Shown piece by piece: positions 9,827 to 62,980 of a DNA stretch of 64,000 nt. Position 1 is the stretch's first letter, and each line of letters starts with the position of its first letter. The notes under the pieces were generated by a model that was not told where the DNA came from, did not search any database, and was given only the letters and a program-made list of their open reading frames with translations. A program made the translations under genes and the position numbers. The DNA lies in assembly GCF_044704955.1 (NCBI RefSeq), contig NC_091985.1:202368001-202432000 (forward strand), written 5' to 3'. The stretch is from Pristiophorus japonicus. Its lineage: Eukaryota.

Positions 9827-9862
9827 TCATCCAACCTGGAGAGACACAAGGACACCCCCACC

Positions 9863-10789
9863 ATGGAGAAACCGTGGGAATGTGGAGACTGTGGGAAGGG
9901 ATTCAATTGCCCCTCTGCGCTGGAAACTCATCGACGGCATCATAACGGAGAGAGGCCATTCACCTGCCCCGTGTGTGGGAAGGGATTCACTCAGTCATCC
10001 AACTTGCTGGTACACAAGCGAATTCACACTGGGGAGAGGCCATTCACCTGCTCCATGTGTGAGAAGGGATTCACTCGTTCATCCGACCTCACTGAACACC
10101 AGCGTGTTCACACTGCGGAAAGGCCGTTTACCTGCCCAGTGTGTGGGAAGGGATTCACTCAGTCATCCAACCTGCGGATACACAAGCGAATTCACACTGG
10201 GGAGAGACCGTTCACCTGCCCCGTGTGTGGGAAGGGATTCACTCAGTCATCCAACCTGCTGGTACACAAGCGAATTCACACTGGGGAGAGGCCATTCACC
10301 TGCTCCATGTGTGAGAAGGGATTCACTCGTTCATCCGAGCTCACTGAACACCAGCGTGTTCACACTGGGGAGAGGCCGTTTACCTGTCCCGTGTGTGGGA
10401 AAGGATTCACTCGATCATTTGACCTGTTGACACACCAACACATTCACACTGGGGAGAGGCCATTCATCTGCTCTGAATGTGGGAAGGGTTTCACTCGATC
10501 ATCCCACCTGCTGACACACCAACGCATTCATACTGGGGAGAGGCCGTTCATCTGCTCTGAGTGTGGGAAGGCTTTCACTCGATCATCTTACCTGCTAGCA
10601 CACCAGCGAGTTCACACTGGGGAGAGGCTATTCACCTGCTCCGAATGTGAGAAGCATTTCACTCGATCATCCAACCTGCTGAGACACCAGCGAGTTCACA
10701 CTGGGGAGAGGCCATTCACCTGCTCTGAGTGTGGGAAGGGATTCACTCAGTCATCCAACCTGCTGACACACCAGCGAGTTCACAAGTGA
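9863..10789 (+). CDS. Tandem C2H2 zinc-finger protein, 11 fingers (308 aa), no KRAB/SCAN domain visible
   Basis: Eleven C-x2-C-x12-H-x3-H units with TGERPF linkers; ACCATGG start context; candidate splice acceptor (CCTTTTACAG) near 9522. Confidence 0.88.
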
Positions 10790-23895: not shown

Positions 23896-24309
23896 AAGGA
23901 CACTGTTTGTATCATGGTTTCCTCTCTCCAGATACTTTACTTTATTATAAACATTTCCATTCATTACAACTTTATTTTATATTCTCTGCCTCAGTTGTCC
24001 ATATCATAACTAATATTTTTCTGGTATTATTATTCTCAAAGCAAAATAGTTCATTGAGCCAGTATAAATCTGATATTTCCTTCACCTAGAATACAGGGGA
24101 AAGTGCAAGCAGCTCCTTCTCACAGTGAGTGCATTATCACTCACAGAGCGCAGAGACACAGAACCGGCCTCAATCCTATTATCACAGGCAGCAGAAGCTG
24201 TCACTCCAACAGTGGTCCGAAGTGGCTGAGTTACATTGTGAATCTTACGGCCACTGGAGCGGTAGGATCCAATGCTGTTTCACCATTGAAACAGATCAGA
24301 TTCATATAC

Positions 24310-26026
24310 GAGATACTGAAATATACAGAATAAAACCCACACTTGCACACCAGAAACTGATAGGTACAGATTAAAACCCACACTCACAGACCAGAAACTG
24401 TCAGGTACAGATTAAACCACACACTTTTTAGCAGAAACTGATGGTTACATATTAAACCCACACTCATATACCAGACACTGACAGCTGTGGGATAAAACCA
24501 ACACTCCAATACCAGAAACTGACAGGTACAGATTAATCCCACATTTATTTTTACCAGAAACTGACAGATACAGAATAAAACCCACACTCATACAGAAATG
24601 ACAGGTACAGATTAAACCCACACTCGTAAACCAGAAACTGACAGGTACAGGTTAGACCCACACTCATATACCAGAAACTGACAGGTACAGATTAAACACA
24701 CACTCATTTACCAAAAACTGACAGGCACAATTTAAACACACACTCATATACCAGAAACTGACAGGTACAGGTTAAACCCACACTCATATACCAGAAACTG
24801 ACAGATACAGATTAAACACACACTCATTTACCAAAAACTGACAGGCACAATTTAAACACACATTCATATATCAGAAACTGACAGGTACAGAATATCATGC
24901 ACACTCACATACTAGAAACTGCCAGGTACAGATTAAACCTCACGCTCATATCAGAAACTGACAGGTACAGATTAATCAGCACACTCATTTTTCAGAAACT
25001 GACAGGTATCGAATAAAATACACATACATATTCCAGAAACTGACAGGTCCAAATTAAAACACACACTCACATACCAGAAACTGACAGGTATCGGTTAAAC
25101 ACACACTCACATCCCAGAGATAGGCAGGTAATAAAATACACACTCATATACCAGAAACTGACAGGTACAGAATAAAATATACACTCGCATACCAGAAACT
25201 GGTAGGTACAGCTTAAACCCCGCACTCGCATACCAGAGATTGAAATGTCTAGAATAAAATGCACACTCACATATCATAAACTGACAGTTACAGAAAAAAA
25301 GAACACACTCACATACCAGAGACTGACAGGTACAGAATAAAATACACATTAATATATCAGAAACTGACAGGTACAGAATAAACACGCACTCATATACCAG
25401 AAACTGACGGGTACAGAATAGTAACCCACACTCATAGCAGATACTGACAGGTACAGATTGCACCCTACACTCATATATCAGAAACTGACAGGTACAGATT
25501 AAAATACCCACTCGCATATTAGAATCTGATATGTACAGATTACACCCCACACTCACATACCAGACACTGACAGGTACAGGATAAAACCTACGCTCACACA
25601 TCAGATACCGACAGGTACAGATTAAACCCACACACATATGGCAGAAACTGACAGTTGCAGAATAGAAACCCACACTCACATACCAGAAACTGACAGTTCC
25701 AGATTAACCCCACAGTCATACATCAGAAATTGACAGGTACAGAATAAAATACACAGTCACATAACAGAAACTGACAGTTACAGAATAAAGCCCACAGTCA
25801 TATACCAGAAATTGACAGGTACAGATTAAAGACCACACTCACACACCAGAAACTGATACGTATAGAATTAAACCTCACATTCACATACCAAAAACTGACA
25901 GTTAGATATTAAACCCACATTCATATAGCAGAACCAAGAGGAACAGAATAAAATCCACACTCACAAAGCAGCTGACAGGTGCAGATTAACCCCACAGCCA
26001 TACCAGAAACTAACAGGTACAGAATA
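24310..26026. repeat. 40-41 bp satellite, about 40 units
   Basis: Tandem consensus CCAGAAACTGACAGGTACAG(A/AA)T(T/A)AAACCCACACTCA(T/C)ATA. Confidence 0.95.
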
Positions 26027-27671: not shown

Positions 27672-27875
27672 ACAAGGTACAGAATAAACACCACACTCAC
27701 ATACTAGAGAGTGACAGGTACCGATTAAAACTCACAATCACATAACCGAAACTGAGAGGTACAGAATAACCCCCACAATCATATACCAGTAACTGACGGG
27801 TACAGATTAAACGCCACACTCATATACCAGAGATCGACAGGTACAGAATAAAATACACACTCACATACTAGAATC
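27672..27875. repeat. Continuation of the 40-41 bp satellite
   Basis: About five further units of the same consensus. Confidence 0.9.
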
Positions 27876-47561: not shown

Positions 47562-48985
47562 CGGGGCACAATGGACATGATATTTGCAGCGCGACAGCTG
47601 CAGGAAAAATGCAGGGAGCAGCACCAGCCCTTATACATGGCCTTTTTCGACCTTACAAAGGCCTTTGACAATGTCAACCACGAGGGTCTATGGAACTTCC
47701 TCCTCCATTTCAGATGCTCCCAAAAGTTTGTCAACATCTTTCGCCTGCTCCACGACGACATGCAGGCCATGATCCTTACCAATAGATCCATTACAGACCC
47801 AATCCACGTCCGGACCGGGGTCACACAGGGCTGTGTCATTGCTCCAACCCTCTTCTCAATCGTCCTTGCTGCCATGCTCCACCTCACAGTCAACAAGCTC
47901 CCCGCTGCAGTGGAACTAAATTACAGAACCAGTGGGAAGTTGTTTAACCTTCGCTGCCTCTAGGCCAGGTCCACGATCACCCCAACCTCTGTTGTTGAGC
48001 TACAGCACGCGGATGACACCTGCGTCTGCACACATTCTGAGGCTGGACTCCAGGATATAGTCGATGTATTTACTGAGGCATACGAAAGTATGGGCCTGAG
48101 GCTAAACATCTGAAAGACAAAGGTCCTCCACCAGCCTGTCCTCGATCCATGGTGCAGCCCTCGACAATGTGGACCATTTCCCATACCTCGGGAGCCTTGT
48201 ATCAACAAAAGCAGACATTGATGAGGAGATTCAACACCATCTGCAGTGTGTCAGTGCAGCCTTCGGCCACCTGAGGAAAAGAGTGTTCGAAGACCAGGCC
48301 CTCAGGTCTACCACCAAGCTCGTGGTCTACAGGACCGTTGTAATACCTGCCCTCCTGTATGGCTCAGAGACATGGACCATGTACAGCAGACACCTCAAGT
48401 TGCTTGAGAAATATCACCAACGATATCTCCGCAAGATCGTACAAATCCCCTGGGAGGACAGGTGTACCAATATCAGCGTCCTCATACAGGCTAATATCCC
48501 TAGCATTGAAGCACTGACTACACTCGATCAGCACCGCTGGGCAGGCCACATAGTTCACATGCCAGACACGAGACTCCCAAAGCAAGTGCTCTATGCGGAG
48601 CTCCTTCATGGCAAATGAGCCAAAGGTGGGCAATGGAAACATTACAAGGACACCCTCAAAGCCTCCCTGATAAAGTGCGACATCCCCACTGACACCTGGG
48701 AGTCCCTGGCCAAAGACGGCCCTAAGTAGAGGAAGTGCATCCGAGAGGGCGCTGAGCACTTCAAGTCTCATCGCTCAGAGCATGCAGAAATCAAGCGCAG
48801 GCAGCAGAAAGAGCGTGCGGCAAACCAGTCCCACGCACCCCTTCCCTCAACGACTGTCTGTCCCACCTGCGACACAGTCTGTGGCTCTCGTATTGGACTG
48901 TTCAGCCACCAAAGAACTCACTTCAGGAGTGGAAGCAAGTCTTCCTCGATTCCGAGGGACTGCCTATGATGATGATAATGATAAA
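47562..48985 (+). mobile_element. RTE-clade LINE, 3' part with (ATG)n-like tail
   Basis: MDMIFAARQLQEKCREQ, FFDLTKAFD, HADD, FPYLGS, C-terminal CPTC...H..TH; ends GAGGGACTGCCTATGATGATGA. Confidence 0.93.
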
Positions 48986-49089
48986 CGTTCTCTGTCCTTG
49001 CCCCCCAGGCCCAGTTCCTTTGCTCAGATTCTGCTAAAAGTAAATTGGGAAAAGTTCACTTTGATTTTTAAAGGCTGAATTATTGCAGA

Positions 49090-49690
49090 GAGCTGCGCAT
49101 GCGGGGATAAGCTCCGCCCCCTGTGTCGATTTTCAGTGAGCAGAAGAGCGCATGCGCCCTCCCCTCCCCCAGCCTGTGAGCGCCATTCAGTCAGTGAGCG
49201 GAAGAAGATGGTTTAAACAGCCGGGAATGGAGACACTGCGGCCCCGGGGTAAGGCAGCGAGCAGCAGCCTCCTTACAGCAGCACATCGCTTTGGGAGCGT
49301 GTCCGCAGATGGGCTCAGAGATCGGCACTGAGTCCGGGGGAAGTTCAGGGGGAATCGGGGTCTGTGTGTAACAGGCGGAGTGGAGCAAGAACTGGTCTCA
49401 GTGCGTGGAGTGAGTGGGGGAAGGGAGAGGCCATTCTCGGGCTGTGTGTGGACAGCGTGTGTCCCGGGTAAGGGAGACAGAATGGGAAGGATCTGCTGTT
49501 TACAATCATTGCTGCTTTCTTCCTGCAAACCAGTAGTGAACGTTCCTGCTTTAGTTCCAGACTCACCGTGTTTGTTGTCATTGGACAGCGAGCAGTGGAA
49601 GCAGAGCCGGACACTGAGGATTTATACAAGGAGTATCTATTGCAGGCACCGGGTGAGAAATGTGAAGGACACATTTTTAAACAGCGACTC
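49090..49690 (+). promoter_or_regulatory. CpG-containing promoter/first-exon-like module, copy 2 (best-preserved motifs)
   Basis: GCGCATGCG motifs at 49094 and 49148 (NRF1-type), GC box at 49112, CGGAAG (ETS) at 49198, GTAAGG donors at 49249 and 49468, acceptor-like TTGGACAG at 49581. Confidence 0.6.
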
Positions 49691-50137
49691 TTTGTTTTTG
49701 GTTGAACGGTTAGTGCCCTGGGAGAGGTGAGCAGCAATCTGAGCTGTGTAAAAGTCCGTGCTCCATCGGGTAGTCCCATTCCTGAAGCAGGGCAGGGGTT
49801 GGGTTGTGTCTGGATGTCAGTAAATTGCTGTAAATCTGCCCAACACACTTGGTGTGCAGAAACTGAGTGCTGCAGTACTGCAGTGGAGTCAGACACTGAC
49901 ACTGTTTGTATCGCTGGCTTCCCTTTGTGAATGTTCATAATGAATATTAAGTGAACGATTACATTCATCACTTTAGTCTTTTCTACCTCTCCTGCTCTTG
50001 AATGATCAGAGATACATTTTCTTCCTACAGGCAAGGAATTGAAGGAACCGGAAATGTGAAGTTTCTTCCACCTGAGACATTTGGAACAGTGTAACCAGCT
50101 GCTTGTAAACACAGTAGGTACGGTACCTATCACAGTG

Positions 50138-50436
50138 TCATCATCACAGCAGTCCCTTGAACGAGGGTAACTTGCTTCCACATGAGTTCACAGATGTTTA
50201 AATGAAGGACCCGATATTCCAGTCCTGAACTCCAATTGAAGGGTGGAAGATGCCTGTGCCTGGTTTGTTTTAACGTGTGGTGACCGTTGCACATCAGCCA
50301 CCACACGGGCTTGACCGAGCTCGGCCTTTATCCAGTGGCAAGGGTTAACCAAGATGACTGGAGACCTGCTCTGCTGCACGGATCTAATGCGCACACATAT
50401 CACAGTGTGGGCTGGCCCATTCTGCCCTGGGCCTCT
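50138..50436 (-). mobile_element. Short non-autonomous element with RTE 3' tail
   Basis: Ends GTGGAAGCAAG..CCTCG..AGGGACTGC.(T/G)TGATGATGA like the RTE tails at 48930-48980 and 26030-26075; upstream sequence does not match the RTE 3' region. Confidence 0.7.
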
Positions 50437-50479
50437 AGTGTGCAGGTACACAGACAGGTTATCCAAATTAAACATGTTT

Positions 50480-52208
50480 GTGGTGCTGAATGGCCTCCTC
50501 CTATTCCTGTGTAATTGGCCTGAGGGGGTTAATAACCACCTCCTGTTCCTAATTTAACAGACTGGAGATACTGAGTGGTCTTCTCATGTTCCTAATGTAA
50601 TAAACACGAGGGTTATAATGGCTTCCTCCTGTTCATAGGTAACAAGGTCTAGGGGCAGAATGACCTCCCCCTGTACCTATGTATCAGGCTAGAATGGGAT
50701 GAATGGCCTCCTTTAGTTCTTATGTAACAGATTCCAGGGGCTGAATAGCCACTTCTATTCCTGTGTAACAGACTCCAGGGGCTAAATAGTCTCCTCCAGT
50801 TCCTATGTAACAAGCTCGAGGGGCTGAATGCCCTCCTCCTGTTCCCCTGAAACAGTCCCGCAGGGATGAATGCCCTTGTCCTATTCCTAATGTAACAGAC
50901 CCGAGGGGCAGAATTGCTTCCTCCTACTGCTTTCTAACTCCAATTGCTGAATGGCCCTCTCCAGTTCCTAATGTAATCGGCTCGAGTTGCTGTATGGCCT
51001 CCTCCAGTCCCTATATGACATCCTCGAAGGGTTGAACGGCCTTCTCCTGTTCCCATGTCACAGGGTCAAAGGGCTGAATGGCCTGCTTGTGATCTTAATT
51101 TAACATGCTTGAGGGGATGAATATCCTCCCCCAGTTCCTATATAACATGTGCGAGGGGCTGAAAGACCTCCTCCAATTCCTCTAACAGGCTGGAGGTGCT
51201 GAATGGGCACCTCCTGTTCCTGGTTAACAATTCCGAGGGGTGGAATTGGCCTACTCCTGTTCCTATGTAACAGACCCAAGGGACTGAGGGTCTTCTCCTG
51301 TTCCTAATGTAAGAAGCACGAGGGGATGAAAAACTTCCTGCTGTTCCCATGTCACAGAATCAAAGGCTGCGTTGTCTGCTTGTGTTTCTAATGTTAGAGA
51401 GGCTGAATTTCCTCTTCCCATATAACAGAATGGAAGGGCTGAATGGCATCCTCCTGATCCAATGTAACAGGCTCGAGGGGAAGAATAGCCTCATCCTGTT
51501 CCTGTCTAACAACATTCAGTGCTGAACAGCCACCTCCTGTTCCTGTGTAATAAGTTAAATGGGATGAGTGGCCTCTTCCAGTTCCTATAACATTCTCAGG
51601 GGCTGAATGGCCTCCTCCAGTTCCTACACAACATGCTTGAGAGTCTGAATGGCCTCCTCCTGTTCAGATGTGAAAGGCTCCAGAGGATGGATGGCCTCCT
51701 CTATTCCTGTGTAACGGTATCCAGTCGATGCATCGCCTCCACCAATTCCTTTATAGCAAGGCTGTGGTTCTGAATGCCCACCTCCTGTTTCTATGCAACA
51801 AACTTGAGGGTCTGAATGGCCTCCTATTATTCATTTGTAACAGGTTTGAGGGGCTGAATGGTGTCCATCTATTCCTGTAAAGCAAACTCCAGGGCTAAAA
51901 GGCCCACTCCAGTTCCTAATGTAACAGAGTCGAAGGGCAGAATGGCTTACTGTTCCTGTGTAACAGGATCCAAGGACTGAATGGGCCTCCTCCACTTCTA
52001 ATGAATGGCCTCCCCCTGTTCCAAATGTAACAGACTCGAGGAATTGAATGGGCCTCCTCCAGTTCCAATGTAACAGGCTCGAGGGACTGAATGGTCTCCT
52101 CCTGTTCCTTGTGTAACAGACTCGAGGGACTGAATGGCCTCCTCCTGTTCCAATGTAACAGACTCGAGGGACTGAATGGTCTCCCCCTGTTCCTTATATA
52201 ACAGGCTC
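50480..52208 (+). repeat. 42-43 bp minisatellite resembling the CR1 3'-terminal sequence, left block
   Basis: Consensus TAACAGGCTCGAGGG(A/G)CTGAATGGCCTCCTCCTGTTCC(T)(T/A)ATG; degenerate at left, homogeneous at right. Confidence 0.92.
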
Positions 52209-55189
52209 ATAAGAACATAAGAATTAGGAACAGGAGTAGGCCATCTAGCCCCGCGAGCCTGCTCCGCCACTCAACAAGAACATGGCTGATCTGGCCGTGG
52301 ACTCAGCTCCACTGACCCGCCCGCTCCCCATAACCCTTAATTCCCTTATTGGTTAAAAATCTATCTATCTGTAATTTGAATACATTCAATGAGCTAGCCT
52401 CAACTGCTTCCCTGGGCAGAGAATTCCACAGATTCACAACCCTCTGGGAGAAGAAATTCCTTCTCAACTCGGTTTTAAATTGGCTCCCCCGTATTTTGAG
52501 GCTGTGCCCCCAAGTTCTAGTCTCCCCGACCAGTGGAAACAACCTCTCTGCCTCTATCTTGTCTATCCCTTTCATTATTTTAAATATTTCTATAAGATCA
52601 CCACTCATCCTTCTGAACTCCAACGAGTAAAGACCCAGTCTACTCAATCTATCATCATAAGGTAACCCCCTCATCTCCAGAATCAGCCTAGTGAATCATC
52701 TCTGTACTCCTCCAAAGCTAGTATATCCTTCCTTAAGTAAGGTGACCAAAAGTGCACGCAGTACTCCAGGTGCGGCCTCACCAATACCCTGTACAGTTGC
52801 AGCAAGACCTCCCTGCTTTTGTACTCCATCCCTCTTGCAATGAAGGCCAATATTCCATTCGCCTTCCTGATTACCTGCAAACCTGCAAACTAACTTTTTG
52901 GGATTCATGCACAAGGACCCCCAGGTCCCTCTGCACCGCAGCATGTTGTAATTTCTCCCCATTCAAATAATATTCCCTTTTACTGTTTTTTTTTTCCCAA
53001 GGTGGATGACCTCACATTTTCCGACATTGTATTCCATCTGCCAAACCTTAGCCCATTCGCTTAACCTATCTAAATCTCTTTGCAACCTCTGTGTCCTCTA
53101 CACAACCCGCTTTCCCACTAATCTTTGTTTCATCTGCAAATCTTGTTACACTACACTCCGTCCCCTCTTCCAGGTCATCTATGTATATTGTAAACAGTTG
53201 TGGTCCCAGCACCGATCCCTGTGGCACACCACTAACCACCGATTTCCAACCTGAAAAGGACCCATTTATCCCGACTCTCTGCTTTCTGTTAGCCAGCCAA
53301 TTCTCTATCCATGCTAATACATTTCCTCTGGCTCCGCGTACCTTTATCTTCTGCAGTAAATTTTTGTGTGGCACCTTTTCGAATGCCTATTGGAAATCTA
53401 AATACACCACATCCATCGGTACACCTCTATCCACTATGCTCGTTATATCCTCAAAGAATTCCAGTAAATTAGTTAAACATGATTTCCCCTTCATGAATCC
53501 ATGTTGCGTCTGCTTGATTGCACTATTCCTATCTAGATGTCCCGCTATTTCTTCCTTAATGATAGTTTCAAGCATTTTCCCCACTACAGATGTTAAACTA
53601 ACCAGCCTATAGTTACCTGCCTTTTGTCTGCCCCCTTTTTTAAACAAAGGCACGACATTAGCTGCTTTCCAATCTGCTGGTACCTCCCCAGAGTCCAGAG
53701 AATTTTGGTAGATTATAACGAATGAATCTGCTATAACTTCCGTCTCTTTTAATACCCTGGGATGCATTTCATCAGGACCAGGGGACTTGTCGACCTTGAG
53801 ATCCATCAGCCTGTCCAGCACTACCCCCCTAGTGATAGTGATTGTCTCAAGATCCTCCCTTCCCACATTCCCGTGACCAGCAATTTTTGGCATGGTTTTT
53901 GTGTCTTCCACTGTGAAGACCGAAGCAAAATAATTGTTTAAGGTCTCAGCCATTTCTACATTTCCCATTATTAAATCCCCTTTCTCATCTTCTAAGGGAC
54001 CAACATTTACTTAAGTCACTCTTTTCCGTTTTATCTATCGGTAAAAGCTTTTACTATCTGTTTCTATGTTTTGCGCAAGTTTACTTTCGTAATCTATCTT
54101 TCCTTTCTTTATTGCTTTCTTAGTCATTCTTTGCTGTCGTTTAAAATTTTCTCAATCTTCTAGTTTCCCACTAACCTTGGCCACCTTATACGCATTGGTT
54201 TTGAACTTGATACTCTCCTTTATTTCCTTAGTTATCCATGGCTGGTTATCCCTTCTCTTACCGCCCTTCTTTTTCACTGGAATATATTTTTGTTGAGCAC
54301 TATGAAAGAGCTCCTTAAAAGTCCTCCACTGTTCCTCAATTGTGCCACCATTTAGTCTGTGTTTCCAGTCTACTTTAGCCAACTCTGTCCTCATCCCACT
54401 GTAGTCCCCTTTGTTTAAACATAGTACGCTCATTTCTGACACAACTTCCTCACCCTCAATCTGGATTACAAATTCAACTATACTGTGATCACTCATTCCG
54501 AGAGGATCTTTTACTAGGAGATCGTTTATTACTCCTGTCTCATTACACAGGACCAGATCTAAGATAGCTTGCTCCCTTGTAGGTTCTGTAACATACTGTT
54601 CTAAGAAACAATCCCGTATGTATTCTATGAATTCTTCCTCAAGGCTACCCCGTGCAATTTGATTTGACCAATCGATATGTAGGTTAAAATCGCCCATGAT
54701 TACTGCTGTTCCTTTTTCACATGCCTCCATTATTCCCTTGATTATTATCTGCCCCACAGTGAAGTTATCATTTGGGGGCCTATAAACTACGCCCACCAGT
54801 GACTTTTTCCCCTTACTATCTCTAATCTCCACCCACAATGATTCAACATTTTGTTCATTAGAGCCAATATTGTCTCTCACAACTGCCCTAATATCATCCT
54901 TGATTAACAGAGCTACCCCACCTCCTTTCCCTTCTTGTCTATCTTTCCAAATTGTCAGATACCCCTGTATGTTTAATTCCCAGTCTTGGCCACCCTGCAA
55001 CCACGTTTCTGTAATGGCCACCAAATCATACCCATTTGTAATGATTTGTGCCGTCAACTCATTTACTTTGTTTTGAATGCTGCATGTGTTTAGGTAAAGT
55101 GTTTTAATACTAGTTTTGAAACCATGATTTTTAGTTCTGACCCCTCCTGCAGCCCCTTTATATTCATACATATTGTCCCTTCCTATCAC
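52209..55189 (-). mobile_element. CR1 family B, near-complete ORF2 (APE+RT) with 3' tail, inserted in the minisatellite
   Basis: 345-aa endonuclease ORF 54152-55189 (ITETWL, MGDFNLH, SDH), RT fragments, TTCTTATG tail; CAGGCTC on both flanks. Confidence 0.94.
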
Positions 55190-55560
55190 CAGGCTCGAGG
55201 GACTGAATGGCCTCCTCCTGTTCCAATGTAACAGGCTCGAGGGACTGAATGGCCTCCCCCTGTTCCTTATGTAACAGGCTCAAGGGACTGAATGGCCTCC
55301 TCCTGTTCCTTATGTAACAGGCTCAAGATACTGAATGGCCTCCTACTGTTCCTTATGTAACAGACTCGAAGGACTGAATGGCCTCCTCCTGTTCCAATAT
55401 AACAGACTCGAGGGACTGAATGGCCACCTCCTGTTCCTTATGTAACAGACTCGAGGGACTGAATGCCTCCCCCTGTTCCTTATGTAACAGACTCGAGGGA
55501 CTGAATGGCCTCCTCCTGTTCCTTATGTAACAGGCTCGAAGGGATGATTTGCCTGCAGGT
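55190..55560 (+). repeat. 42-43 bp minisatellite, right block
   Basis: About eight highly similar units (GACTGAATGG at 55201, 55243, 55286...). Confidence 0.94.
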
Positions 55561-55927
55561 TCCATGTGCTGAAAGGCCTCCTCAAGTTCCAAGATCCAGG
55601 GACTGTTCTTCCCCGTTGTTTTGGAAATAGCATCGGGCAGTAAACAGGAGCTCAATGCTTCTTGCCCGCCAGCTCTCTGATCAGGCTCCTCGCGCTGATT
55701 ATGTTTTCTCATCTCACTCAAACGTCCCCAAATGTTGCTTTCTTTTCCATCGCCTCTCGGGTTATTAGCCAAGTTTGCATCGAGCAAATCGTGATCTCAC
55801 CAGTAACAGCACTTTCCCGACGGTTATCCACGAGGCTGCTTCTGATATTTTCTTCTGCGTAAATGCTAACCACCGTAAGTAACTGAAAAGTTTCATTTCT
55901 ACAGCAACAACAAACACTTGCATTTAT

Positions 55928-56108
55928 GACATACAGAATGAATCCCACACTCACTCACTGTACCACAGACTGACAGATACAGTGTGAATCCCACACTCAC
56001 TCACTGTACCCCTAACTGTCAGATACAGAATGAATCCCACACTCACTCACTGTACCCCTAACTGTCAGATACAGAATGAATTGCGCACTCACTCACTGTA
56101 CCCCTGAC
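55928..56108. repeat. 46-bp variant of the 40-41 bp satellite (about 4 units)
   Basis: ATACAG(A/T)(A/G)TGAATCCCACACTCACTCACTGTACC...CTG(A/T)CAG with 46-bp period. Confidence 0.85.
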
Positions 56109-56234
56109 AGCTATGGTTTATATCATGTACTAATAGCTCGTCTCTACTCCAAATATTTCTGATTCTCATTCATCCAATATAATGTGAAAAACTATTGTCT
56201 GTTGGGCTAGTCTCTGATCTGTAAATTTCTCAGA

Positions 56235-57317
56235 TGTAGGATAAAACAACTCGCATACCAGGAACTGACAGGTACAGAGGAAACACCGACTCACTTACCC
56301 CAGAATGAGCGATACAGAATAAAACCCACACTCACATACCAGAAACTGACAGGTACAGAATAAAACCCATACTCACATACCAGAAACTGACAGGTACAGA
56401 ATAAAACCCACACTCACATACCGGAAACTAACAGGTACAGAAGAAACACACACTCACTTATCCCAGAATGAGAGATACAGAATAAAACCCACACTCACAT
56501 ACCCGAAACTGACAGGTACAGAATAAAACCCACACTCACATACCAGAAACTGACAGGTACAGAATAAAACCCATACTCACATACCAGAAACTGACAGGTA
56601 CAGAATAAAACCCACACTCACATACCAGAAACTGACAGGTACAGAATAAATCCCGCACTCACTTACCCCAGAATGAGAGATACAGAATGAATCCCACATT
56701 CACATTGCACAAACTGACATATAAAGGTAAATATCCACACTTGGATACCAGAAACTGACACCCCGCACATCTATCTCAAACTGACAGGTACAAAAAAAAC
56801 ACAATCACATCCCAGAAACTGACAGGTACATATTAATTCCTACACTCACACAGCAGGAACTGACAAGTACAGAATAAAACCCACATTCACATAGCAAAAA
56901 CTGATGGGTACAGAATACAATCAACACCCAGATTCCAGAAACTGACAGGTACAGAATGCAATCCACACTTAGATACCAGAAAGCGACCAGTGCAGATTAA
57001 AACCACAGTCACATATCAGAAACTGACAGGTACCAATTAAACCCGAAACTCCCATGTCAGAATCTGATAGGTACAGAATGCAATCCACACTCTGATCCAA
57101 AAAACTGACACATACTGGTCAATATCCACATTCACATGCCAGAAGCTGACGATATAGGTTAACGTACACACTCATCTATCAGAAACTGACCAGTACATGA
57201 TAAATCACACACTGACATAACAGAAACTGACAGATACAGATAAAGACCACACTCAGATACCAGAAACTGACAGATACAGAATAAAACCCACACACACATA
57301 CCAGAAACTGACCAACT
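56235..57317. repeat. 40-41 bp satellite block
   Basis: Same consensus as 24310-26026. Confidence 0.95.
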
Positions 57318-62664: not shown

Positions 62665-62980
62665 TGCAGAATAAAACCCATACTCGCATGTCAAAACTTG
62701 ACAGGTACACAATAAGTTCCAACTTGCGTAGCAGAGACTGACAGGTACAGAATAAATCTCACAATCACTTCACAAAAACTGACGGGTACAGAATAAAACA
62801 CACACTCAAATACCAGAAACAGAGAGTTACAGAATAAATCCCACATTCACATAGCAGAAACTGACAGGTACAGTATGAAATCCACATCCATGTATCTGAA
62901 CAATAATATGCAAGTAAAACCCATACCTGCCTATTAGAAACTGACAGCGAAACACACACACACCAGAGACTGACAGAACA
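62665..62980. repeat. 40-41 bp satellite, resumed after the CR1 insertion
   Basis: CAGAAACTGACAGGTACAGAATAAA units. Confidence 0.88.

What the first reader, a model, noticed from the sequence alone, without database searches (positions are those of the whole stretch)
50480..55560. Minisatellite made of the CR1 3'-terminal signal, with a CR1 inserted into it
Seen: unit CAGGCTCGAGGG(A/G)CTGAATGGCCTCCTCCTGTTCC..ATG closely matches the CR1 tail CAGGCTCGA(A/G)GGGCCGAATGGCCTACTCCTG..CCT...TATG found throughout the window; roughly 50 units over about 2.1 kb with divergence falling left to right; a 3-kb CR1 sits in the homogeneous part flanked by CAGGCTC. Known: CR1/L2 RTs recognise a 3' stem-loop plus short repeat. 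Inference: an amplified RT-recognition signal, which could arise by repeated template re-priming, be mobilised in trans, or act as an RNA decoy or small-RNA source. It lies downstream of the promoter-like module at 49090 in sense orientation.
Basis: partly seen in the sequence, partly recalled or inferred. Interest (0 to 1): 0.7.

Follow-up and report, generated by a model that had tools for sequence, protein, structure and literature searches.

The report
Minisatellite that colonises dead LINE tails
A 42-base tandem repeat derived from the tail end of a common jumping gene (CR1) sits inside old, dead CR1 tails at over a hundred mapped places, mostly near chromosome ends, and is much younger than those tails, so it likely spreads by copying itself into them through DNA recombination rather than by the jumping gene's own enzyme.

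Summary
In detail: 52 units of 42-43 bp match the CR1 3' stem-loop (0 of 1000 shuffles reach the score), interrupted by a 2,981-bp CR1 with a 7-bp target duplication. That CR1 is antisense to the array, is shared by 8 of 20 paralogous cassettes, and looks ordinary. Divergence is a step (old block, young 3' block), not a gradient. The array lies in spliced-out intron 2 of a duplicated C2H2 zinc-finger gene cassette. The larger finding is genome-wide: 16,256 exact junction matches; 20 of 28 arrays sampled without regard to flanks start at an old CR1 3' end (background 11 of 2000); hosts are polyphyletic (AU p 1e-12) and about 11% diverged, while their units are 2.6% from one genome-wide consensus (29 of 29); loci cluster near contig ends. 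This argues against RT re-priming at insertion and against trans-mobilisation, and favours later transfer into dead tails by ectopic recombination (about 0.6). No empty-site orthologue could be tested. Closest known: squamate SINE-derived satellites; Drosophila Rsp-like spread into 1.688. The scan noted a similar but different SINE minisatellite in this genome, not this repeat.

The parts
50473..52030 (+). Old block of the minisatellite, 38 degenerate units of 33-43 bp
   Evidence: 19.6% mean divergence from own consensus, which equals the genome-wide unit apart from one known variable site
52031..52208 (+). Young block, 4 units left of the CR1; ends in the left target-site copy CAGGCTC (52202-52208)
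52209..55189 (-). 5'-truncated, frame-broken CR1-clade LINE (APE and RT remnants, 3' tail at 52209-52270), antisense to the array
   Evidence: same insertion in 8 of 20 paralogous cassettes
55190..55530 (+). Young block, 8 units right of the CR1; starts with the right target-site copy CAGGCTC (55190-55196); a local unit variant confined to this gene cluster
   Evidence: (73 of 79 exact matches on C9:201-229 Mb)
55531..55599 (+). Two degenerate terminal units; the AG at the start may serve as a minor splice acceptor
   Evidence: weak hint from contigs of run X3
49090..49248 (+). Promoter-like module and non-coding exon 1 of a C2H2 zinc-finger gene cassette (cover rises at about 49150)
   Evidence: GT..AG joint to 50031 in contigs of X1 and X3
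50031..50117 (+). Exon 2; its donor opens the intron that holds the array
55760..55874 (+). Exon 3; the acceptor reads CG in this copy and AG in 11 of 13 paralogs where the site was matched
   Evidence: (loose ends join exon 2 to 55761 in X1-X3)

Best explanation
The array is one member of a genome-wide, CR1-tail-derived minisatellite family that likely spreads by being copied, through ectopic homologous recombination, into the stem-loop of old dead CR1 tails near chromosome ends, and then likely grows and shrinks locally as an ordinary VNTR. Steps: (1) shown: the unit is the stem-loop part of an old CR1 tail type joined head to tail by one derived junction; (2) inferred: that junction arose once, among many one-off tail duplications, and the variant amplified, including blocks of tens of kb or more; (3) inferred: a break in a dead tail is repaired from an array (conversion, or integration of an excised circle) using about 38 bp of shared sequence, leaving host 5' body, then n donor units, then host tail end, without a target duplication; (4) shown in paralogs: local copy-number change concentrated at the 3' end. 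In this window the array is an old member carried along in about 150 duplicated zinc-finger cassettes, is spliced out with intron 2, and later received an ordinary antisense CR1 insertion.
For: Family size: 16,256 exact junction matches, reversed control 0; rough estimate 67,000 units, 2.8 Mb. Anatomy: 102 loci where a CR1 3' UTR runs straight into the array; among arrays found by internal units only, 20 of 28 with a visible 5' end start at a CR1 3' body (19 inside the tail, 1 directly behind a complete tail) against 11 of 2000 random stretches; hosts carry CR1 ORF2 C-terminal remnants (45 of 65 array hosts, 19 of 30 solo tails). Hosts are polyphyletic: a 100/100 split holds array and solo copies on both sides, one clade rejected at AU p 1.4e-12 (50 of 95 hosts long enough); one array (L185) has both ends from a different retroposon family. 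Age gap: host divergence median 0.11, unit divergence 0.026, host greater in 29 of 29; array consensus equals the genome consensus in 11 of 11 flank-blind arrays against 0.1 expected from local amplification; even 2-4-unit arrays are 4.5% diverged (26 of 582). Last units carry tail-type letters (20 of 38 against 115 of 768 internal, five of the 38 selected for it; 8 of 38 against 9 of 768 at a second site). Location: 43 of 65 within 10 Mb of a contig end against 16 of 65 solo tails, p 3e-6; array hosts show a GC-biased substitution pattern (W>S 0.076 vs 0.050, S>W 0.082 vs 0.123, p 1e-7), as expected of high recombination. Other tail duplications have private junctions and stay single.
Against: No empty orthologous or allelic site was seen: no related genome is held and hosts had no paralogs among my loci. 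Direct traces of transfer are weak: shared two-mutation haplotypes 97 vs null 87 (31 of 200 nulls as high), three-mutation 3 vs 0.8 (12 of 200); only a modest, non-independent proximity effect. The window's own array shows no CR1 host remnant upstream (no HMM hit in 5 copies) and its old block is twice as diverged as the hosts studied, so the family predates them. All probes were exact matches and so select young, consensus-like arrays. The control that solo tails decay as fast as bodies rests on 8 unselected old-type tails read by eye (identity 0.73-0.95). About 38 bp is short homology for recombination (own knowledge). Contig ends are taken as chromosome ends without a telomere check.
Confidence: 0.6

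Rival explanations
1. Arrays are as old as their hosts (born at or soon after insertion) and were later homogenised between loci by concerted evolution, so units only look young.
For: Old arrays exist (window old block, 19.6%). Between-locus homogeneity of sSats is explained this way in PMC10702118. Nearby loci share mutations slightly more.
Against: Needs the same derived junction to have arisen or been inherited in at least two CR1 subfamilies and another family while most copies of those subfamilies are solo (1,149 exact solo matches against 102). Two- to four-unit arrays, which should homogenise poorly, are also young. It still requires ectopic exchange.
Confidence: 0.17
2. RNA-templated homing: array transcripts are bound by CR1 ORF2p through the stem-loop, reverse transcribed, and the cDNA integrates at homologous dead tails.
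For: Each unit keeps part of the hairpin; arrays lie in transcribed introns; the in-register anatomy is equally compatible with cDNA-mediated conversion; stringent LINEs recognise a 3' stem-loop and can slip on 3' repeats (PMC3747384, passages).
Against: CR1 copies of the same families are spread along chromosomes but arrays are not; free insertions with target duplications, expected as by-products, were not seen (0 clear of 12); the outer stem is shortened and window units fold no better than shuffles.
Confidence: 0.12
3. Independent local duplication of each tail with the same breakpoints, followed by selective amplification of only perfect units (for example because a protein or a DNA structure needs them).
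For: Solo tails with a T variant in the 5' arm give short microhomology for this junction and do occur; the junction itself is a small inverted repeat; arrays are fixed for C at a site where solo tails vary (300 of 305 against 9 of 30).
Against: Most hosts lack that T at their own 5' arm; the T variant is not more common than other changes; L185 units cannot be made from its host tail; independent duplications found each have a private junction.
Confidence: 0.07
4. One reading: repeated re-priming by the CR1 reverse transcriptase during insertion, or a master CR1 carrying the array or a doubled tail.
For: Arrays sit exactly at the 3' end of CR1 copies in sense orientation.
Against: Predicts unit age equal to host age and, for a master, monophyletic hosts spread along chromosomes; observed 0.026 vs 0.11, AU p 1.4e-12, end-of-contig bias.
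Confidence: 0.04

Closest known systems
SINE-derived satellites (sSat1-3) of squamates, especially snake sSat3 (Vassetzky et al. 2023, PMC10702118; parts 1-4 of 5 of the text read, supplements not seen)
   Same: Tandem units cut from a retroposon, thousands of loci, terminal unit running on into the parent element, units more alike (89%) than parent copies (64%), subtelomeric bias.
   Different: Here the parent is a LINE 3' stem-loop and the unit is 42-43 bp (theirs about 67-290 nt); both host termini are commonly kept (a minor form there); hosts are shown to be polyphyletic and older than their units, which the parts I read do not test; they invoke unequal recombination and concerted evolution.
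[quoted passage not shown] 2020, PMC7403614; passages read)
   Same: A satellite colonises new loci only where a homologous landing repeat already exists; shared junctions; interlocus conversion or eccDNA proposed; first and last partial units that together make one monomer.
   Different: There the landing pad is an unrelated satellite reached through microhomology; here it is the dead tails of the LINE from which the unit itself came, on all large chromosomes.
TE-derived minisatellites: mouse B1-derived VNTR family (Bois et al. 1998, seen only as a reference and table row in PMC9659126 and PMC6947457), Alu-derived minisatellites, LINE 3'-end satellites (cetacean L1, chicken CR1 HinfI; passages in PMC9659126)
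   Same: Tandem repeat born from part of a retroposon, including 3' ends.
   Different: Those passages describe local expansion or single satellite blocks, not later transfer into old copies.
CR1/L2 stringent 3' recognition signal; shark HE1 SINE / HER1 LINE pair (PMC3747384, passages and table)
   Same: The unit contains the tail hairpin region of a CR1-clade LINE.
   Different: Outer stem shortened, terminal repeat reduced to one copy, no tRNA head; identity of the hosts with HER1 was not tested.

Membership tests
Retroposon-derived dispersed satellite (sSat-type) | Tandem unit homologous to part of a retroposon | tested here: met
   (0 of 1000 shuffles, 9 tails)
Retroposon-derived dispersed satellite (sSat-type) | [quoted passage not shown] | tested here: met
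Retroposon-derived dispersed satellite (sSat-type) | Units more homogeneous within and between loci than parent copies | tested here: met
Retroposon-derived dispersed satellite (sSat-type) | Subtelomeric bias | tested here: met
   (contig ends as proxy)
Retroposon-derived dispersed satellite (sSat-type) | Parent is a tRNA-derived SINE (Squam1-3) | tested here: not met
   hosts carry CR1 ORF2 C-termini; so it works like an sSat but is not one
Non-autonomous retroposon mobilised in trans by CR1 | Target-site duplications around the whole array at unrelated sites | tested here: not met
   longest shared words 4-7 bp in 12 arrays, same as cross-locus null; old TSDs could have decayed
Non-autonomous retroposon mobilised in trans by CR1 | RNA bound and primed by ORF2p | not testable with these tools
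   needs a binding or retrotransposition assay
Composite retroposon with internal VNTR (SVA-like master element) | Array-bearing copies descend from one master | tested here: not met
   AU p 1.4e-12
CR1-clade LINE (the inserted element) | APE endonuclease plus RT, 5' truncation, 3' stem-loop with short repeat, short TSD | tested here: met
   clade name rests on tail and ORF2 likeness recalled from own knowledge, no RT tree against named clades was built
Known structured RNA family | Rfam match | tested here: not met
   0 matches in 48500-57000

The most novel reading that the evidence does not exclude
A protein-free selfish repeat made only of the LINE's recognition hairpin retrohomes: its intronic transcripts hijack CR1 reverse transcriptase and the copies land specifically in dead CR1 tails, turning about a thousand retrotransposon corpses into unstable minisatellites.
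Probability: 0.12. Interest if true: 0.85.

Novelty: new variant of a known kind. Interest (0 to 1): 0.55.

Why it matters
How one minisatellite sequence comes to occupy hundreds of unlinked loci is usually left to 'concerted evolution'. Here each array sits in a datable, classifiable host (a dead CR1 tail), so seeding of new loci can be separated from local growth and tested directly with empty sites in related genomes. If the reading holds, dead LINE tails act as a genome-wide grid of landing pads for a repeat born from them, adding megabases of unstable DNA at chromosome ends and inside a large zinc-finger gene cluster. The single locus in the window is by itself ordinary.

Tried and rejected
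CR1 inserted in sense into a pre-existing array as the cause of the host-plus-array anatomy: rejected, only 2 of 62 host-anchored arrays had further units upstream within the DNA seen (median 1.5 kb). Excess of array-type T in solo tails as a trace of conversion: not seen in the 100 of 121 matches listed; T variants were not clearly nearer ends (6 of 15 within 10 Mb). Shared rare haplotypes between loci: not significant (one search was an empty run from a script fault). Host remnant upstream of the window's array: none. Empty paralogous sites: none among my loci; a search with the downstream flank returned only 95-100% copies (40 of 152 candidates scored). CR1 insertion enrichment in arrays: by my count, 4 distinct insertions in about 1.9 kb of array against 2 in about 1.8 kb of flank across 20 paralogs, too few for a test; the three whose orientation I read were antisense. 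Rfam: no match. Literature: ten searches found no description of this repeat; passages of two elasmobranch genome papers (10.1101/2025.06.08.657570, PMC10620051) mention simple repeats at chromosome ends but not this family; Repbase, Dfam and most subscription journals were not searchable, so it may already be catalogued. Ideas about G-quadruplex or PRDM9-type drive are recalled analogies and were not tested.
Full report
What is in the window. The sequence and TRF show a 42-43-bp array from 50473 to 52208 and from 55190 to about 55599. Segmentation gives 52 units: 38 old ones (19.6% from their consensus, no trend inside the block), 12 young ones (5.4%), and 2 degenerate end units. A young unit matches all 9 CR1 tails tested in the window far above shuffles (0 of 1000 each). 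The interrupting element, 52209-55189, lies on the minus strand, has APE and RT remnants and a 7-bp target duplication. The tails fold into an 8-bp outer stem and an inner hairpin; the window's young units keep a shortened form and fold no better than shuffles. The names CR1 and shark-like rest on recalled tail and ORF2 motifs and on earlier scan notes, not on a call that names them.

Gene context. The window's unit variant is confined to distal C9 (73 of 79 matches at 201-229 Mb of a 230-Mb contig). Twenty paralogous regions show one cassette: promoter module, exon, array, downstream flank, at 90-98% identity; 152 candidates were found for the flank. The window's CR1 insertion is shared by 8 of 20, and 8 of 20 have uninterrupted arrays of 23-48 units. 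In 12 paralogs classified, young units lie at the 3' end and number 2-22, also in copies without the CR1 (17 and 14). Contigs of three coded runs (not on record as RNA, mostly 90-99% alike, so they speak for the cassette family) show GT..AG joints into exon 2 and loose ends joining exon 2 to 55761, then to a further exon 247 bp past the window; a C2H2 exon follows about 6 kb past the window. The array is therefore in intron 2 of a zinc-finger gene's leader and is spliced out. A contig of a second coded organism (X4) spans the last unit and the flank at 96%.

The family. A 34-nt junction pattern has 16,256 exact matches, roughly 67,000 units. The nearest parent is an older CR1 tail type, 1,149 exact solo matches, spread along chromosomes. 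At 102 loci a CR1 3' UTR runs directly into the array. For a flank-blind sample I used internal-unit probes: of 32 array rows, 4 were dropped (two cut by the fetch, one second half of an interrupted array, one probe source); 20 of the remaining 28 start at a CR1 3' body scoring 20 bits or more, against 11 of 2000 random stretches. Two of those 20 match the strict pattern, which suggests about 1,000 host-anchored arrays, a rough figure. Hosts are 5'-truncated LINEs with ORF2 C-terminal remnants.

How it spreads. On 240 bp of body (50 of 95 hosts long enough), array and solo copies fall on both sides of a 100/100 split and array monophyly is rejected (AU p 1.4e-12); a first tree on 130 bp was poorly resolved but also mixed. 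One array has both ends from another retroposon family, and one has a CR1 5' end with that other family's 3' end. In 29 of 29 arrays with five or more units, units are closer to one genome-wide consensus (median 0.026) than hosts are to their subfamily (0.11); local amplification of a decayed tail would give 0.1 perfect array consensuses among 11 flank-blind arrays, and 11 were seen. Under neutral turnover within an array the distance to the founder still grows at the mutation rate (established theory), so the units must be younger than the hosts or exchanged between loci. Short arrays are young too. Last units revert to tail-type letters. Arrays concentrate near contig ends (43 of 65 against 16 of 65 within 10 Mb, on the 19 contigs of known length; on C1 16 of 16 against 16 of 62 within 20 Mb, four of the 16 being copies of one locus and one mid-contig hit dropped because it proved a solo tail), and their hosts show GC-biased substitution. 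Other tail duplications have private junctions and low copy number, apart from one separate 29-bp satellite. Together this fits: one junction variant, amplified, then copied into old tails by ectopic recombination or circle integration.

What speaks against or is missing. No empty site was observed. Shared multi-mutation haplotypes between loci are not in significant excess. Probes select young arrays. The window's own array has no visible host and its old block is older than the hosts studied, so for this locus the homing origin is inferred from the family, not shown. An RNA-templated version gives the same anatomy and is not excluded, though the end-of-chromosome bias and the lack of free insertions with target duplications count against it.

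Comparison with what is known. The pattern closely parallels squamate SINE-derived satellites (PMC10702118, parts 1-4 of 5; its supplements on terminal units were not seen and may bear on how new the two-termini anatomy is) and the proposed mechanism parallels Rsp-like spread into 1.688 (PMC7403614, passages). TE-derived minisatellites are reviewed in PMC9659126 and PMC6947457 (passages), 3'-end recognition in PMC3747384 (passages). Ten searches found no account of this repeat; repeat databases were not searchable. Earlier scan notes describe a different 33-bp SINE minisatellite in this genome; none of four answered look-ups returned this repeat.

Verdict. The family-level result, a young minisatellite inside old polyphyletic LINE tails, is a new variant of a known kind with a clear test. 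Interest 0.55.

Noticed in passing
G000:C9:171.47-171.72 Mb (L231-L240): A separate 29-bp satellite built from the inner part of the same CR1 tail, spanning at least 250 kb.
   Followed up: no
G000:C16:1.91-2.0 Mb, C2:4.92-4.96 Mb, C245, C3739 (L127-L170): Large, nearly pure blocks of the 42-bp repeat (96-100% cover in 12 of 13 3-kb samples); candidate donor reservoirs.
   Followed up: partly
window 55758-55759: The exon-3 splice acceptor reads CG in this copy and in L108 and L113, AG in 11 other paralogs; this copy may skip the exon or use another acceptor.
   Followed up: partly
window 50473-55544: Each sense unit ends in a pyrimidine run plus AACAG, so the intron holds about 50 acceptor-like sites; contigs of run X3 hint at use of the last one.
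   Followed up: partly
window 24302-26023, 27675-27873, 55931-57312, 62694-62887: A second, A/C-rich 41-46-bp minisatellite family in the same zinc-finger introns.
   Followed up: no
window 9827-10789 (+): C2H2 zinc-finger exon of an upstream gene, about ten fingers.
   Followed up: partly
L185:2729-3694 and L077: Arrays ending in the tail of a second retroposon family whose tail also contains TGTAA, the end of the unit; a possible source of the junction.
   Followed up: no
G000 C11:16.9-18.3 Mb, C15:103.7-104.8 Mb, C17:31.7-32.5 Mb, C21:35.9 Mb, C9:192.2-192.4 Mb: Interstitial clusters of arrays that might mark former chromosome ends or scaffold joins.
   Followed up: no
L005/L006 (G000:C1:3.38 Mb): An array with an inverted arm at its 5' end.
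   Followed up: no
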